DNA from: Gemmatimonadota bacterium
GTDB lineage: Bacteria; Gemmatimonadota; Gemmatimonadetes; Gemmatimonadales; Gemmatimonadaceae
Assembly: GCA_040389905.1 (NCBI GenBank)
Contig: JAZJZK010000007.1
Coordinates: forward strand, 383,492 to 447,491
Direction of reading: 5' to 3'
Length of the DNA: 64,000 nt
In this document: positions 29,911 through 35,899 of the stretch, piece after piece
Position numbering within the stretch: position 1 is the first letter of the stretch
Layout of the letters: every line of letters starts with the position of its first letter
Program-made: the position numbers and the translations under genes
The notes under the pieces: generated by a model
What the model was told of the DNA's origin: nothing
Databases searched by the model: none
The model's input: only the letters and a program-made list of their open reading frames with translations

Positions 29911-29975
29911 GGAAAAGACTATGAGTGCAATGGAACGATGACGCGTTTGCGTCGCTCGCGCGCGAATGTTCGCGC

Positions 29976-30344
29976 ATGAGAGACTTCAAGAAGATAATCG
30001 CCTGGCAGAAGGCGCATGCGCTCAGCGTCGCGATCGGCCCTGCCGCAGACTGGCGACGGTTCCGAAAACGACCTCGGCTCCGCTCTCAGTTGCTCCGGGC
30101 GATCGACTCGATTGGCGGCTGTATTTCAGAGGGCGCTGGCAAGCCGACAACGCCCGAGTTCGCGCGCTACCTGGATATGGCGATGTCGTCGGCGCGAGAA
30201 GTGGATAACCACCTGCTGCTGGCTCGCGATATCGACTGCATGAACGCAGACGTCGCGGAGCGCTTGCTCGCGGACGTCGATGAGATACGACGGATTCTTT
30301 TCGTGTACACGCGTGAAGTTCGCAGGCGGGCGGATGACGAGTAA
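29976..30344 (+). CDS. Four-helix-bundle protein (23S rRNA IVP / S23-like family)
   Basis: MRDFKKIIAWQKAHAL, LRSQLLRAIDSIGGCISEG, EFARYLDMAMSSAREV. Confidence 0.88.
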   Translation: MRDFKKIIAWQKAHALSVAIGPAADWRRFRKRPRLRSQLLRAIDSIGGCISEGAGKPTTPEFARYLDMAMSSAREVDNHLLLARDIDCMNADVAERLLADVDEIRRILFVYTREVRRRADDE

Positions 30345-30350
30345 TGCGCC

Positions 30351-30500
30351 GTAATCAGATGAGACAGGTGCTCAGTAGCCAACCGCAGCTAACAGAGCGA
30401 CAGGGGGTGTGGCGCTCCAGTGCATCGCACCGTGATCGCCACACCCCCTGTTGCTCTGTCGGCTGCGGCTGATCACTGAGCACCTGTCACATCTGATTAC
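30351..30500. repeat. Inverted pair of a ~64-bp unit directly after the four-helix-bundle gene
   Basis: 30351-30414 pairs with 30437-30500 (GTAATCAGAT..ACAGGTGCTCAGT...CAGGGGGTGTGGCG). Confidence 0.9.
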
Positions 30501-30512
30501 CGCGCACAAAAC

Positions 30513-31100
30513 TCAGCCCGACTTCGCCCGCGCCTGCACGTCCAGCGCCCCCTTGATCCCCTCGCGTACCCACGCCTCCACCGCCTCCGAGATCACCGGA
30601 AACAGCCCCCGAATCACCTCGCCTTCGCGCTTGCCTACTCCCCCGAGCACGTAGTCTTTCAAAGGCCCGCCGGGCGCCCGCTCCGGATCTCCAACCCCGA
30701 TCCTCAACCGCGCGTACTTCTGCGTCCCGAGTGCCTGATCGATCGACTTGAGTCCGTTGTGCCCTCCCGCTCCGCCCTCGGCTCGTACCCGCCAGGTGCC
30801 GGCGGGAATGGCAACGTCGTCGACGAGTACCATGAGATCCGTCGCCGCCGACCAGAAGGGGCGGCGTGCGTACTGCACCAGCACACCGCCGGACAGGTTC
30901 ATGTACGTCTGCGGCTTGACGAGACGGACGATTTCCTTGACGCCCGGAACGTGACCCTGCGCAGCACGCGCCTGGCCGTCCTTTTTCCACCCGTCGACGT
31001 TCCAGCGATCCGCCAGCGCATCGACGAGCCACCAGCCCACGTTGTGACGCGTGTGCTCGTACTCTTTTCCCGGGTTGCCCAGGCCAACGATCACCTTCAT
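30513..31100 (-). CDS. pth: Peptidyl-tRNA hydrolase
   Basis: VGLGNPG, TRHNVG, KPQTYMNLSG, GGHNGLKS. Confidence 0.96.
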   Translation of the reverse strand: MKVIVGLGNPGKEYEHTRHNVGWWLVDALADRWNVDGWKKDGQARAAQGHVPGVKEIVRLVKPQTYMNLSGGVLVQYARRPFWSAATDLMVLVDDVAIPAGTWRVRAEGGAGGHNGLKSIDQALGTQKYARLRIGVGDPERAPGGPLKDYVLGGVGKREGEVIRGLFPVISEAVEAWVREGIKGALDVQARAKSG

Positions 31101-31189
31101 CGGGGTTCCATCATCCTCTGAATGCCGCGACGGCTCCGCCCCGGAAGGGCGGAGCCGTCGCGTGAGTGCTGCGAGCAGTGCCAAGAATG

Positions 31190-31834
31190 TTACTTCTTCG
31201 CGTCGTCGTCTTCCTTCGCCTTGCGGATCAACTCGGGCTCCGCAGCGCCCGGCTCGGCGGCGGCTGCCTCGACGGCCGCGCGCGGCGCGATCACGGCGCA
31301 GATCGTTGCATCTTCGTCGCTCAGGATTTCCAAACCCTCGGGAACCTTGAGGTCGCGCACGTGGAGCGAGTGGCCCATCGCGAGATGCGTGACATCGACA
31401 TCGATGTGGTTCGGAATGGCCGACGGATCGACGAGAATCTCGACGCTGTGCACGATCTGCTCGAGGAGCGCGCCGCTGAGGCGGACGCCATCCGGCACGC
31501 CGACGAACACGAGTGGCACCTTGACCGTGACCTTCTCACCGGCCACGAGCTCCTGGAAGTCGATGTGGAGCACGACCTTCTTGAACGGGTGGCGCTGAAT
31601 CTCGCGGATGAGCGTGTTGCTGTTGCCGCCGCCGAGCGAGAGATCGATGACCGTGCTGCCCGCGGTGATGGTGGACAGAAGCTTGTCGAGATCGCGTGCG
31701 TTGACCGACAGGCCCTGCGGTTCGCGGGCGTGACCATAGATGACGCCGGGAACGCGGCCTGCCGCGCGCAGCTTGCGTGCGACTCCCTTTCCGGTGTCCG
31801 AGCGCGTCTCCGCGCTGAGTGATGCCTTACCCAT
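31190..31834 (-). CDS. rplY: 50S ribosomal protein L25/Ctc (long form)
   Basis: GKGVARKLRAAGRVPGVIYG, QRHP, HIDFQ. Confidence 0.96.
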   Translation of the reverse strand: MGKASLSAETRSDTGKGVARKLRAAGRVPGVIYGHAREPQGLSVNARDLDKLLSTITAGSTVIDLSLGGGNSNTLIREIQRHPFKKVVLHIDFQELVAGEKVTVKVPLVFVGVPDGVRLSGALLEQIVHSVEILVDPSAIPNHIDVDVTHLAMGHSLHVRDLKVPEGLEILSDEDATICAVIAPRAAVEAAAAEPGAAEPELIRKAKEDDDAKK

Positions 31835-31873
31835 GACTGGATTCCTGATACGAGCGTGTTCGACTGCAGCGAA

Positions 31874-31950
31874 CCGCGATGCCGGTGCTACTCTCAGGCG
31901 GCTGCGTCCGCCCTACCATGCCGGTGCTGCCAACAAGCAGCGTGTCGCGG
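31874..31950 (-). promoter_or_regulatory. Structured rplY leader containing a 5S rRNA loop E mimic
   Basis: RNA: CCGCGA-CAC-GCUGC uuguug GCAGC-ACCG-GCAUGGUAG GGCGG acgcag CCGCC UGAGAGUAGC-ACCGGCA-UCGCGG. Confidence 0.7.
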
Positions 31951-32041
31951 GGAACCCTAAACCTAATAGGAGACGGGGGTCATGGGACAGGTAGTGCGAC
32001 AAACTAGTGGAACCGGGCGGACGTCGTCCCTGTCCCCTGTC

Positions 32042-32995
32042 TCAGTCGAACAGCGACGACACCGACTGCTCCGCATGCGTGTACCGAATCGCCTTGCTGA
32101 GCAATTCACCCACCGACAGTATCGTCAGCCGCTCGAAACGCCGCTCCGGTGGCAGCAGGATCGTATCCGTGACGGCAACTTCCTTGATCGGTGCGTCCAT
32201 GAGTCGCTGCACCGCCGGGCCGCTGAAGAGGGCATGCGTCGCGCACGCATAGATGTCTCGCGCGCCGAGCCGCTTCAAGGCGTGCGCCGCCTCGCTGATC
32301 GTGCCTGCCGTGTCGATCATGTCGTCAGCGAGAATACAGTCACGTCCGTCCACTTCGCCGACGACATTGACCACTTCGCTGACATTCGGGGCCGGCCGCC
32401 GCTTGTCGATGATCGCCAGCGAGGCGTTGAGCCGCTTGGCGAAACCGCGCGCCATCTTGGCCGACCCGACGTCCGGAGCCACCACAACGGTATCCTTCAG
32501 CTGTTTCTTCCTGAAGTGCGACGACAAGACCGGCATGGCGTACAGATGATCGACGGGAATGTCGAAAAAGCCCTGCAGCTGGTGCTGGTGAAAGTCGATG
32601 CCCAGTACCCGGTCGGCACCGGCACCCACGATCATGTTGGCCATGAGCTTCGCGCCGATCGCCACGCGCGGCTGGTCCTTTCGGTCCTGCCGTGCGTAGC
32701 CGTAATAGGGCATCACGACCGTGACGCGCGCCGCACTCGCCCGCTTCGCCGCATCGATCAGGAGCATCAGCTCCATGATGTTTTCTGCGGGGGCATTGGT
32801 GCTCTGGACGATGAAGACATCGTTACCGCGAACGTTTTCATCGATTCGAACGAAGATCTCCCCGTCCGCAAACCGCGTGCAGGTGAGCTTGCACAGTTCC
32901 ACACCCAAGTGCTTCGAGATCTCTTCCGCCAACGGGCGGTTGCCGAGCCCCGACAACAGCTTGAACCCGTGCGAGGGTACGGCGAGCCCGTCCAT
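32042..32995 (-). CDS. prs: Ribose-phosphate pyrophosphokinase
   Basis: FADGE, YYGYARQDRK, PDVGSAK, DDMIDTAGT. Confidence 0.98.
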   Translation of the reverse strand: MDGLAVPSHGFKLLSGLGNRPLAEEISKHLGVELCKLTCTRFADGEIFVRIDENVRGNDVFIVQSTNAPAENIMELMLLIDAAKRASAARVTVVMPYYGYARQDRKDQPRVAIGAKLMANMIVGAGADRVLGIDFHQHQLQGFFDIPVDHLYAMPVLSSHFRKKQLKDTVVVAPDVGSAKMARGFAKRLNASLAIIDKRRPAPNVSEVVNVVGEVDGRDCILADDMIDTAGTISEAAHALKRLGARDIYACATHALFSGPAVQRLMDAPIKEVAVTDTILLPPERRFERLTILSVGELLSKAIRYTHAEQSVSSLFD

Positions 32996-33054
32996 TCGAA
33001 GCCTTGGTATCGAGTTGGTTCAGCGGCGAATCGTTCGCCCGATTGCCGCTTCAG

Positions 33055-33125
33055 TTCCCCCGCGTGGATTCGAACCACGATTCGCGGCTCCAAAGGCCGC
33101 TGTCCTGCCATTGGACGACAGGGGA
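33055..33125 (-). tRNA. tRNA-Gln (TTG)
   Basis: TCCCCTGTCGTCCAATGGCAGGACAGCGGCCTTTGGAGCCGCGAATCGTGGTTCGAATCCACGCGGGGGAA; folds as cloverleaf; no encoded CCA. Confidence 0.95.
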
Positions 33126-33187
33126 TCGTCTGGACAAAAACCTAACCACCCCGACTGGGTGGGGAAAGCGTGAAATCACCACGCTCA

Positions 33188-35899
33188 TCATCCAATGTAC
33201 GAGCACACCAGCGATCGGCCGGCGGGCGTGAAGCGACCAAGGATGCCGATGCGTCCTTCTTCGAAGGTCGCCGGGTCATTGATGTTCTCGAGTGTGAGGC
33301 GCGCCGTCCGCGTCCATTCGTCACTGCGGTCCACATCCGCCAGCCGCGTGGCCGCACGCTCCAGCGCGGCCCTTCGCTTCGGAGACACGCCACCGTGAAT
33401 CTCCGCGCCATTCCAGCATGCTCCGCGAGCAATCGCCCGGACCACGATCCAGCGCTCACTCGGAAGCAAACGCCTGTCCCCGGCGAGCCCGACAAGCGTG
33501 GTGTCGGCCGGTGACGCGCCGACGCGGCTCGCGGATGACTCTGTGACCAGTGATCGAACTACCTCATGCGCCACGATCGCCTCTTTGATCGAGCGCGCCT
33601 CCAGTTCCAGCTCGGGGAGCCCCCGCACCCGGCCGATCTCTGCCAGTGCGTGCGCGCCCGTCTGGACAATGCCGACGCCATACATGTACGAGACAGGAAC
33701 CGGATCCCCCATGAGCAGCCACCCCATGGCGAGGGTTTCACGCACGCGAGCGACAGCCATCTCGCCAGCGCCGCTGCTCAGCGCGAGCAAGGCCGCGGCG
33801 ATGTTCTCGTCCGCGAGAATCGTGAGTGAACGAAGCGCGGCCGCCGATTTGGACGGATTGTCTCTGAGCGCCGCTCGAGGCTCGAGATACCACGCCGTCG
33901 GAAGGCTGGCTGAGCGAGCCACTGACCGGAACTGAGGGAGCGCGGAGTCGGCGGCAAAGCGCGTGAGCGCCTCGCGAAGGGAGTCCGTGACAGGTGAGGG
34001 AAGTGTCGCGAATGCGCGGCCGATCAGGCTCCTGTCAGGAGGGATTGTCCGTCTCGCAGACCGGAGGGCTCGAATCTGGTCTGCGGTCGCGGCGACGCCA
34101 CGAACGAGATGCTGCCGCACCACGGAATCTGCCCGCGCCACTCGCCGCATCCCAGCATCCGTCGATTGGACCCAGCTCCGACGTTGCTGCGGCGTGAGCG
34201 GAGGCAAATTCCGAAAGTCCAGAAACATGCCGGTGAGAAACCCTGTGAACACCGTCATCACGCCGAGCAGCATGGCTGCGGACGCGAGCCACTCCACCGA
34301 CAAGAGCCGACGTCTCGCCAGCTCTGGACTGTCCGCTGGCGGCGAAACACCCACGCTCAGGAGCCAACCGCTCACGAGTTCCTGGGGCACGTGCGGGCGG
34401 CGCAGGTCACGAATTCGCCGCCGAGGCGCGCTGGCCAGGCGTGCCGCACGCTCACGGTATTCGATGACGAAGGCGACGAGCCAACCGAGGCACGCGGGTG
34501 CGAGAATCGCGGCGACATCCGCCGCACCCACGAGCCCCTCCGAGAACTCACCCTGGGAATGCAGCTTTCCGAACGCCCAAAGCGCGCCAAGGCACAGCGC
34601 CAGCGCCGATCCCACTCCGGCGATGGCGGCCGCTCGGCGCCGATTCGTCAACCACCGCTGGGCCATGGTTGGGGCGATCGCCGCAAAGCGTCCCATGCCG
34701 TTGAGCAGGTACACCGTGTCCGGGTAGGGATCGAGCAACACGTCGACCGCAACGCGCACCGGATAGCCGGAGCCGCGCGCCCAGCGGAGATGGTTGGCGG
34801 CAACACCAAACGCGATGCCCGCAGCGCAGACCAGCCCGACGGACAGCAGCGCTACCACGAATCCCGCCAACAGCCACGCCAGGTTGCCAGGCGTGCTCGC
34901 CCCGACGACGAACAGCAGGACGCCGAGTCCGATGACCATTGCCGTCAGCCAACGTACGGCAGCCACACCCGCGCCACGCATCGGCTCGAGGCCCGGCGGC
35001 GGCCACTCGATCACCTGTGCCGCCACGGAGCACGCCCGCGCAACCTCGGCCGCGGCCGGGCGGTGGGCTGGGTCCTTCGTCAACATCCGATCGATGAGCC
35101 GCGCGAAATCGGCGTCGAGATCCGGGCGAAGCGCTCCGATGGCCGGCGCCGCGTCCTTGATGTGTGCGGCGATCACGGCAACGACTGACGCGCTCTTGAA
35201 GAGCTCTCGGCCGGCGAGTAGCTCGAAGGCGACGACGCCCAGCGAATAGACGTCGGTGCGATCGGTGACCGTGTCGCCAGACGCCTGCTCCGGACTCATG
35301 TACTCAGGCGTGCCCAGCGAGATCCCCTGTCCCGTCAATCGCTCGCTCGGCATGGTACCGGGGACGGCGGCCGCACTGATTCCGAAGTCGAGTACGACAA
35401 CCCGCTCCGTACCACCTTCGAGCATGATGTTGCTCGGTTTGATATCGCGGTGGATGAGGTCTCGTGCATGCGCGGCGGCGAGCGCCGACGCAATTTCACC
35501 GACGATCCGCCGACAGCGGGCTTGCGGAACCTTCGTTCCGATCGGGCATGCCTGCGCGAGCGTCGGGCCGTCCACGTACTGCATGACGAAATAGCTCGTT
35601 CCCGAATTCGGCAGCTCGCCGACGCGGAACACGCTCACCACATTCGGATGGGAGATGGACGCCGCGGCCTCCGCTTCGCGCGCGAAGCGCGCCCGTGCCA
35701 CCGCGTCGTTCGCGCGGTCGGGTGCAAGCACCTTGATGACGACTTCGCGCTTGAGCGCCGGGTCACGGCCAACGAAGACCGCTCCCATTCCGCCTCGCCC
35801 AAGCAACCGCAGGGACTGGATCCCCGGCGCAAGCTCGGCCTCGAGCTCGCGCTGGATGGGAAGAAGGTCGGTTTGTCCGGACAGCCGCGGTGCTTGCAT
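33188..35899 (-). CDS. Hanks-type Ser/Thr kinase with multi-TM region and helical C-terminus
   Basis: GRGGMGAV, IKVL, HRDIKPSN, DFG, GTPEYMSPEQ, DVYSLG. Confidence 0.92.
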   Translation of the reverse strand: MQAPRLSGQTDLLPIQRELEAELAPGIQSLRLLGRGGMGAVFVGRDPALKREVVIKVLAPDRANDAVARARFAREAEAAASISHPNVVSVFRVGELPNSGTSYFVMQYVDGPTLAQACPIGTKVPQARCRRIVGEIASALAAAHARDLIHRDIKPSNIMLEGGTERVVVLDFGISAAAVPGTMPSERLTGQGISLGTPEYMSPEQASGDTVTDRTDVYSLGVVAFELLAGRELFKSASVVAVIAAHIKDAAPAIGALRPDLDADFARLIDRMLTKDPAHRPAAAEVARACSVAAQVIEWPPPGLEPMRGAGVAAVRWLTAMVIGLGVLLFVVGASTPGNLAWLLAGFVVALLSVGLVCAAGIAFGVAANHLRWARGSGYPVRVAVDVLLDPYPDTVYLLNGMGRFAAIAPTMAQRWLTNRRRAAAIAGVGSALALCLGALWAFGKLHSQGEFSEGLVGAADVAAILAPACLGWLVAFVIEYRERAARLASAPRRRIRDLRRPHVPQELVSGWLLSVGVSPPADSPELARRRLLSVEWLASAAMLLGVMTVFTGFLTGMFLDFRNLPPLTPQQRRSWVQSTDAGMRRVARADSVVRQHLVRGVAATADQIRALRSARRTIPPDRSLIGRAFATLPSPVTDSLREALTRFAADSALPQFRSVARSASLPTAWYLEPRAALRDNPSKSAAALRSLTILADENIAAALLALSSGAGEMAVARVRETLAMGWLLMGDPVPVSYMYGVGIVQTGAHALAEIGRVRGLPELELEARSIKEAIVAHEVVRSLVTESSASRVGASPADTTLVGLAGDRRLLPSERWIVVRAIARGACWNGAEIHGGVSPKRRAALERAATRLADVDRSDEWTRTARLTLENINDPATFEEGRIGILGRFTPAGRSLVCSYIG

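What the first reader, a model, noticed from the sequence alone, without database searches (positions are those of the whole stretch)
31874..31950. rplY (L25) leader contains a miniature 5S rRNA with a near-exact loop E: candidate autoregulation by mimicry
Seen: 40-115 nt upstream of the rplY start, the minus strand reads GC-AUGGUAG-GGCGG(acgcag)CCGCC-U-GAGAGUA-GC (31921-31887). It lies in a three-way junction closed by CCGCGA/UCGCGG, with a second hairpin GCUGC/GCAGC, and is flanked by an 11-bp direct repeat (ATGCCGGTGCT at 31879 and 31918). Established: bacterial 5S loop E is GAUGGUAG/CGAGAGUAG and is the L25/Ctc binding site. Inference: this is a 5S-like decoy (helix I, stub of helix II, loop E arm) that lets free L25 control its own mRNA. 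I do not recall such an explicit mimic among described L25 leaders, but cannot confirm novelty.
Basis: partly seen in the sequence, partly recalled or inferred. Interest (0 to 1): 0.85.

Follow-up and report, generated by a model that had tools for sequence, protein, structure and literature searches.

The report
L25 leader copying 5S loop E
A conserved RNA structure in front of the ribosomal protein L25 gene of many Gemmatimonadaceae bacteria copies the spot on 5S ribosomal RNA where L25 binds, so surplus L25 can probably shut off its own synthesis.

Summary
The prs-rplY spacer carries AUGGUA/GAGAGU, six of the seven 5S loop E pairs; the G72·A104 pair is not kept. A GTDB-wide scan gave 103 hits: 102 are this element (101 directly before rplY, one at a contig end after prs), one is chance. 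All but one titled hit are Gemmatimonadota or unnamed bacteria. Loop E never varies, while the helix above it changes through compensatory pairs. Spacing is fixed to the rplY start, not the prs stop. 'Miniature 5S' overstates it: the three-way junction is optional and the 11-bp repeat is incidental. Added here: an invariant loop GCAG and an invariant CUGC about 30 nt before AUG, a probable pseudoknot without covariation; and a second clade of 14 genomes with a circularly permuted loop E whose loop pairs beside the Shine-Dalgarno. Best reading: an L25 autoregulatory leader acting on translation (about 0.7); binding and repression are untested. No Rfam match; not found in the papers searched. 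This scan already noted such a leader in another Gemmatimonadaceae genome, and loop E mimics in Bacteroidales and Anaerolineales.

The parts
33054..33125 (-). tRNA-Gln(TTG), first gene of the cluster
   Evidence: ARAGORN; Rfam
32042..32995 (-). prs, ribose-phosphate pyrophosphokinase (upstream gene)
31945..31950 (-). P1 5' strand CCGCGA (pairs with 31874-31879)
   Evidence: RNAalifold on 17 genus g1 leaders, with G-C to G-U and C-G to U-A changes
31926..31941 (-). P2 side hairpin, variable in sequence and optional outside the genus
   Evidence: 4 of 5 pairs with changes on both sides; no branch in 31 of 102 leaders
31921..31924 (-). helix V analogue, 5' strand CCGG (pairs with 31882-31885)
   Evidence: G-C to A-U in 1 of 47 genus-type leaders
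31914..31919 (-). loop E 5' strand AUGGUA (5S positions 73-78); position 72 at 31920 is C, not G
   Evidence: same as the host 5S; unchanged in 66 of 66 with two mismatches allowed
31896..31913 (-). helix IV analogue, GGGCGG / CCGCCU (31913-31908 with 31901-31896), closing the loop ACGCAG (31907-31902)
   Evidence: all cells paired, two pairs with compensatory changes; further swaps
31902..31905 (-). invariant GCAG of the apical loop, proposed pseudoknot 5' strand
   Evidence: 102 of 102 although the search pattern left the loop free; pairing is inferred
31890..31895 (-). loop E 3' strand GAGAGU (5S positions 98-103); A104 at 31889 is variable
31886..31888 (-). 3'-side bulge between loop E and the lower stem, proposed hinge
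   Evidence: first lower-stem pair lies 3-5 nt after U103 in 82 of 102 constrained folds; hinge role inferred
31874..31885 (-). 3' strands of the helix V analogue (31885-31882) and of P1 (31879-31874)
31866..31869 (-). invariant CUGC, proposed pseudoknot 3' strand, 31 nt before AUG
   Evidence: the only 4-mer present in all 102 downstream segments; 110 of 111 in metagenome hits
31859..31873 (-). weak P4 hairpin UUCG/CGAA with CUGC in its loop
   Evidence: predicted in 37 of 102 constrained folds; not in the RNAalifold consensus: weakly supported
31843..31846 (-). weak Shine-Dalgarno AGGA
   Evidence: sequence; median duplex with an anti-SD 9-mer -4.0 kcal/mol across leaders
31190..31834 (-). 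rplY, two-domain bL25/Ctc, 214 aa
30513..31100 (-). pth, peptidyl-tRNA hydrolase (downstream gene)

Best explanation
A cis-acting ribosomal-protein leader for bL25 that works by rRNA mimicry. Shown: the mRNA keeps the six upper loop E pairs under a 6-bp helix, at a fixed distance from the rplY start. Inferred step 1 (about 0.88): L25 not taken up by 5S rRNA binds this arm as it binds 5S. Inferred step 2 (about 0.7): the arm bends at the bulge below loop E so that the apical GCAG pairs with CUGC just past the lower stem, making a compact pseudoknot that ends 27-38 nt before AUG. Inferred step 3: bound L25 locks this fold and blocks or traps the 30S subunit at its landing zone next to a weak Shine-Dalgarno, lowering rplY translation. 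It does not appear to work by simply pairing off the Shine-Dalgarno.
For: Position: 101 of 103 GTDB-wide hits lie directly before rplY, one more follows prs at a contig end. Spacing: loop E end to AUG 51-64 nt (sd 2.6, n=101) against prs stop to element 20-235 nt (sd 53, n=100). Selection on loop E: in 15 of 15 genus g1 loci picked by protein alone the core is identical while flanks drift; with two mismatches allowed, 5 of 66 hits deviate, all by pair-keeping changes in helix IV (A-U x3, C-G, A-U) and none in the 12 loop E bases. Covariation: helix IV 100% paired, pair 82-94 A-U 55 / C-G 46, pair 81-95 G-C 90 / A-U 10 / G-U 1. Match to the target: same strands as the 5S of six family genomes and as the E. 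coli fragment crystallised with L25 (PMC1920249 Table 1). Protein: R11, K16, R20, R23, Y33, H90, D92 are shared with a solved ribosomal L25 (their role in 5S binding is recalled). Precedent: L25 represses its own translation in E. coli (PMC4408793); pseudoknot operators of S4 and S15 trap the 30S (PMC10931766). Parallel design: a separate clade has a permuted loop E with a loop that pairs beside the Shine-Dalgarno.
Against: No binding or expression data. G72·A104 is not kept (C·A 67, U-A 16, U·U 6, C·U 6, C·C 5, G·A 2 of 102), and the tandem G·U above loop E of the E. coli site is missing. The pseudoknot never varies, so it has no covariation support, and it needs a sharp bend or melting of the lower stem. 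Forcing the arm, or arm plus pseudoknot, gave no consistent change in ribosome-binding-site accessibility (median shift 0.0 kcal/mol, 102 sequences; up/down 17/11 and 29/28), so the repression step is not explained by secondary structure. Most of the family has no such leader (110 of 143 upstream regions; 10 of these have the permuted type). The leaders are kin, so counts overstate independent events.
Confidence: 0.7

Rival explanations
1. L25 binds the mimic but acts positively: in the free mRNA the 3' strand of helix IV pairs with the Shine-Dalgarno region, and L25 binding frees it.
For: A duplex below -6 kcal/mol between the helix IV 3' strand and the -20..-3 region forms in 34 of 47 genus-type leaders.
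Against: Only 18 of 46 GGGAGG-type and 1 of 9 GGAAGG-type leaders show it; any CCU pairs with any SD; positive feedback runs against the known L25 case.
Confidence: 0.07
2. L25 binds the mimic but control is at mRNA level (Rho termination, processing or decay of the prs-rplY-pth message), not at initiation.
For: No consistent change in RBS accessibility; the element sits between two genes.
Against: Spacing is fixed to the AUG; no intrinsic terminator in the spacer on the coding strand, which does not exclude Rho or a nuclease.
Confidence: 0.09
3. Loop E is only a structural module in an RNA that senses something else (another protein, or a metabolite such as PRPP from the prs gene upstream).
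For: The invariant GCAG/CUGC and A of the loop have no counterpart in 5S; the lowest loop E pair is lost.
Against: It is the exact L25 target sequence placed only before the L25 gene; a second clade rebuilt the same site in permuted form before the same gene; distance to prs is free.
Confidence: 0.11
4. A neutral relic of a 5S rRNA fragment inserted before rplY.
For: Twelve of the 14 loop E bases are invariantly identical to the host 5S.
Against: Helix IV, the loop and the flanks differ from the 5S of six family genomes; compensatory changes and invariance across eight genera show selection.
Confidence: 0.03

Closest known systems
Enterobacterial / gammaproteobacterial L25 (rplY) leader (Aseev, Bylinkina and Boni 2015, PMC4408793; Rfam RF03131 from Eckert and Weinberg 2020, PMC7247131)
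   Same: Structured RNA before rplY, weak Shine-Dalgarno, same proposed ligand.
   Different: That operator is a short irregular hairpin with a GUCG loop which, in the authors' words, does not resemble loop E; it is found only with short one-domain L25. Here the protein has two domains, the leader copies loop E, and RF03131 finds nothing in this genome.
Bacterial 5S rRNA loop E / helix IV, the L25 site (Rfam RF00001; PDB 1DFU)
   Same: A73-A78 and G98-U103 identical; a helix stacks on top.
   Different: G72·A104 not kept; no tandem G·U in helix IV; six-base loop with invariant GCAG; no L5 or L18 sites; the Rfam 5S model does not hit.
r-leaders that imitate rRNA (L20, S15, S4-Firmicutes, S6:S18 as described in PMC7247131)
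   Same: An mRNA copy of the protein's rRNA site in a new scaffold, in several lineage-specific forms.
   Different: None of the passages read describes such a mimic for L25.
E. coli S15 (rpsO) and S4 (alpha operon) pseudoknot operators (PMC10931766)
   Same: Protein-stabilised pseudoknot near a start codon, proposed analogy for the repression step.
   Different: The S4 pseudoknot includes the ribosome-binding site; here the proposed one ends about 30 nt upstream of AUG and is not shown to form.

Membership tests
L25-Gammaproteobacteria leader (RF03131) | Match to the covariance model | tested here: not met
   No hit in the genome; control rings in E. coli; no hit in the region at E up to 10
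L25-Gammaproteobacteria leader (RF03131) | Short one-domain L25 and GAGA-type SD | tested here: not met
   214-aa two-domain protein; SD AGGA
5S rRNA (RF00001) | About 120-nt three-arm RNA matching the model | tested here: not met
   No hit on the leader; the genome's two true 5S genes lie elsewhere
Bacterial loop E motif | Seven stacked non-canonical pairs 72-78 with 98-104 | tested here: inconclusive
   Six pairs match in sequence; 72·104 varies; the 3D pairs themselves could not be tested
Bacterial loop E motif | Flanked by helices on both sides | tested here: met
   Helix IV analogue stacks directly; the lower helix follows after a 3-4 nt bulge
r-leader (class) | Conserved structure 5' of a ribosomal-protein gene, with covariation | tested here: met
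r-leader (class) | Lies within the rplY transcript | tested here: inconclusive
   No promoter-like site in the region and no terminator in the spacer; prs stop is as close as 20 nt; no transcript data
r-leader (class) | Binds the encoded protein | not testable with these tools
   Needs EMSA, footprinting or SHAPE
r-leader (class) | Binding represses expression | not testable with these tools
   Needs a reporter; the computed accessibility test showed no shift

The most novel reading that the evidence does not exclude
Gemmatimonadaceae evolved, twice, an L25-sensing RNA switch in which a near-exact 5S loop E is coupled to a loop-to-downstream pseudoknot: once in the native orientation (this element) and once circularly permuted, with the pseudoknot landing beside the Shine-Dalgarno. 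Together with the loop E mimics that this scan noted in Bacteroidales and Anaerolineales, this would make loop E mimicry the common way two-domain L25/Ctc proteins regulate themselves, with the E. coli leader the exception.
Probability: 0.45. Interest if true: 0.75.

Novelty: new variant of a known kind. Interest (0 to 1): 0.62.

Why it matters
The only tested L25 leader does not visibly copy 5S rRNA and is confined to bacteria with the short protein; the 2024 review read here describes no control for the two-domain form. This element offers an explicit mimic of one of the best-solved RNA-protein sites, so binding and repression can be tested with a handful of point mutants. The permuted sister element gives a natural experiment on how the same protein-binding module is wired to a ribosome-binding site, and the variable 72·104 pair shows which part of loop E a mimic can drop.

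Tried and rejected
Rfam scans of the window region and of 11 relatives' loci gave no family at its cut-off except the tRNA. Single-sequence folding gave no signal. Expression: no RNA holder listed, so no reads were laid. A Shine-Dalgarno sequestration switch was not found. A 10-nt complement between the end of prs and the strand after CUGC is frequent in the genus (33 of 44 below -8 kcal/mol, 9 of 56 elsewhere) but own partners pair no better than swapped ones (29 of 100 swaps as good): treated as coincidence. The direct repeat is not conserved. Covariation in the GCAG/CUGC pairing was sought in 102 genome and 111 metagenome leaders and none was found. A covariance model found no diverged copies among 100 family upstream regions beyond the 5 already seen, and none in 119 genomes of 11 other families of the phylum (stricter filters). 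The L25-5S crystal paper (PMC15747) is not held, and searches for the contact residues found nothing useful, so residue roles are recalled. One search was a mis-specified alignment and is not used. The tree is weakly supported at the deep nodes (type I clade 0.70, type II clade 0.35) and is not used to order events.

Full report
Observation. rplY encodes a 214-aa two-domain bL25. Rfam finds only the tRNA at its cut-off in 30500-33500. The genome's two 5S genes read C-GAUGGUA-C / G-GAGAGUA-G at loop E, as do those of five relatives; the E. coli fragment crystallised with L25 has the same strands (PMC1920249, Table 1 passage), and loop E has seven non-canonical pairs (PMC1976436, passages). The leader matches 73-78 and 98-103 exactly; G72 is C. 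The two strands together occur 5 times in this genome against 1.7 expected besides the real ones, so chance is excluded by position, not by rarity alone: about 1e-5 for a given 60-nt slot.

Distribution. Among relatives chosen by the rplY protein alone, 15 of 15 genus g1 loci carry the element and 0 of 12 loci from two other families do (one of the 15, L010, comes from the unpublished genome G012, and the count is 14 of 14 without it). I fetched 129 of the 138 family genomes with an rplY match (9 left out, two of them unpublished). With the genus loci that makes 143 upstream regions, of which 33, in eight genera, carry it, all or none within a genus. A pattern with two mismatches allowed hit 67 of 401 family genomes: 66 of the 71 genomes in those eight genera, and one chance site on another contig; I did not check whether the 5 misses (79-90% complete) hold rplY. 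An exact pattern over all GTDB species gave 103 hits: 101 directly before rplY, one after prs at a contig end, one chance. Titles were shown for 80; all read Gemmatimonadota or unnamed bacterium except a 2.2-kb contig labelled Burkholderiales, probably mis-binned. A covariance model hit 5 of 31 family genomes and 0 of 119 genomes from 11 other families of the phylum. On a weakly supported protein tree of 69 loci the carriers form one clade (support 0.70).

Anatomy and selection. In the 102 leaders the geometry is rigid: a 6-bp helix, a 6-nt loop A-N-GCAG, CUGC 19-24 nt after loop E and 27-38 nt before AUG; loop E end to AUG is 51-64 nt (sd 2.6) while prs stop to element is 20-235 nt (sd 53). 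The element therefore belongs to the rplY start. Helix IV is paired in every cell, with swaps at 82-94 (A-U 55, C-G 46) and 81-95 (G-C 90, A-U 10, G-U 1) in 101 distinct rows; no shuffle reached the covariation score, but the sequences are kin, so this is not a probability. The five deviants all keep helix IV pairs (79-97 A-U three times, C-G once; 83-93 A-U once) and none touches the 12 loop E bases; I did not fetch their context. The exact patterns fixed loop E, so its invariance rests on the protein-picked loci and the mismatch search. Position 72·104 is free. In genus g1, P1, P2 and the helix below loop E covary. Across all leaders a three-way junction is predicted in 66, a straight stem in 31 and a short stem in 5, so the junction is not part of the core and 'miniature 5S' is too strong. 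The repeat is a by-product of the CCGG/CCGG helix.

The proposed pseudoknot. GCAG was left free in the patterns yet is present in 102 of 102 genome leaders and 111 of 111 metagenome leaders; CUGC is the only 4-mer in all 102 downstream segments and is in 110 of the 111 (the exception runs into the middle of rplY). The base before CUGC varies in 2 of 102, which limits the pairing to four pairs and leaves helix IV intact. The upper arm (12-13 stacked pairs) and the lower stem (most often 11-12 pairs, then about 4 nt to CUGC) are of like length and are joined by a 3-4 nt one-sided bulge, as expected if the arm folds back. This is inference: no covariation was seen, and the lower stem might instead melt.

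A permuted sister element. Fourteen of 14 sampled genomes in five other genera carry, before rplY, GAGAGG on the 5' strand and AGGGUA on the 3' strand between two helices: loop E upside down, with U74 and U103 as G (five further genomes matched the pattern away from rplY, and the reversed control pattern rang about as often as those). Its apical loop has UCCGG and a CCGGA lies 15-20 nt before AUG, next to the Shine-Dalgarno; the next pair is A-U in 8, U-A in 4 and mismatched in 2, which is perhaps one compensatory event. The two types never share an rplY leader. The same design in two clades argues that the site is for L25 and that the loop pairing matters.

Mechanism. Most likely surplus L25 binds the arm (about 0.88) and represses translation of rplY (0.7 overall). 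L25 is a proven translational autorepressor in E. coli (PMC4408793: abstract, first part of the text and passages). The protein here keeps R11, K16, R20, R23, Y33, H90 and D92, shared with a solved ribosomal L25; that these bind 5S is recalled. How repression happens is the weak step: forcing the arm or the pseudoknot did not shift the cost of opening -18..+13 in any consistent way. I favour blocking or trapping of the 30S subunit by an L25-locked fold next to a weak Shine-Dalgarno, by analogy with the S15 and S4 operators (PMC10931766, passages). Rivals: another ligand (0.11), control at mRNA level (0.09), activation (0.07), relic (0.03). Whether the element is transcribed with prs is not shown; a consensus scan found no promoter-like site in the region and no terminator in the spacer.

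Known and new. It is not RF03131. Aseev et al. state that the E. coli hairpin does not resemble loop E, and the 2024 review lists control only for short-L25 species. Eckert and Weinberg list one L25 leader and have no Gemmatimonad entry in the supplements searched, two of which were cut when stored (passages and supplements). Eight literature searches (listings only, apart from the papers named) found no loop E-mimicking rplY leader; subscription journals and bioRxiv supplements are not covered. PMC2448414 held only its reference list. This scan's own notes already describe such a leader in another Gemmatimonadaceae genome and loop E mimics in Bacteroidales and Anaerolineales; they are unchecked, and their short texts mention neither a pseudoknot nor a permuted form (one title mentions a two-state switch; searches found nothing more). 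Verdict: a real, undescribed variant of the rRNA-mimicking r-leader class; function well motivated but untested.

Noticed in passing
L263-L269, L271-L274, L277-L279 (rplY leaders of genera g68, g34, g23, g37, g31): Type II leader: circularly permuted loop E (GAGAGG 5', AGGGUA 3') whose apical UCCGG can pair with CCGGA beside the Shine-Dalgarno; 14 of 14 genomes sampled in these genera; no Rfam match in the five scanned.
   Followed up: partly
L037, L041, L050, L055, L078, L085, L111, L125, L149 (genera g29, g44, g49, g70), 33-48 nt before rplY: A third conserved motif, a CCGG/CCGG hairpin on a lower stem with a 3-nt bulge and no loop E; it resembles the lower half of the type I leader and occurs in neighbouring genera on the tree.
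   Followed up: partly
window 31857-31866 with 32043-32052: Perfect 10-nt complement between the end of prs and the strand after CUGC; common in the genus but no covariation in a swap test.
   Followed up: yes
window 31825-31837 with 31979-31991: A 13-nt, 85% complement between the variable part of the spacer and the rplY start codon region; not checked in relatives.
   Followed up: no
window 31965-32044 and spacers of many relatives: The part of the spacer upstream of the element holds a long imperfect inverted repeat; relatives carry unrelated short tandem and inverted repeats there.
   Followed up: no
L001, L002, L408-L415: The 5S rRNA of six family genomes has a C·C mismatch at 81·95 beside U80·G96, where E. 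coli has tandem G·U pairs.
   Followed up: no
window 29925-30344 (+): A 23S rRNA intervening-sequence family protein (PF05635) lies on the opposite strand between pth and ychF.
   Followed up: no
L231: A 2.2-kb contig labelled Burkholderiales carries a genus g1-type leader and rplY; probably mis-binned.
   Followed up: no
L376: A metagenome contig in which the element runs straight into the middle of rplY, lacking CUGC and the start: deletion or misassembly.
   Followed up: no
L096, L155 (g18); L138, L146 (g28); L062, L071, L074 (g69): Other genus-specific conserved stretches before rplY, unrelated to the three types.
   Followed up: no
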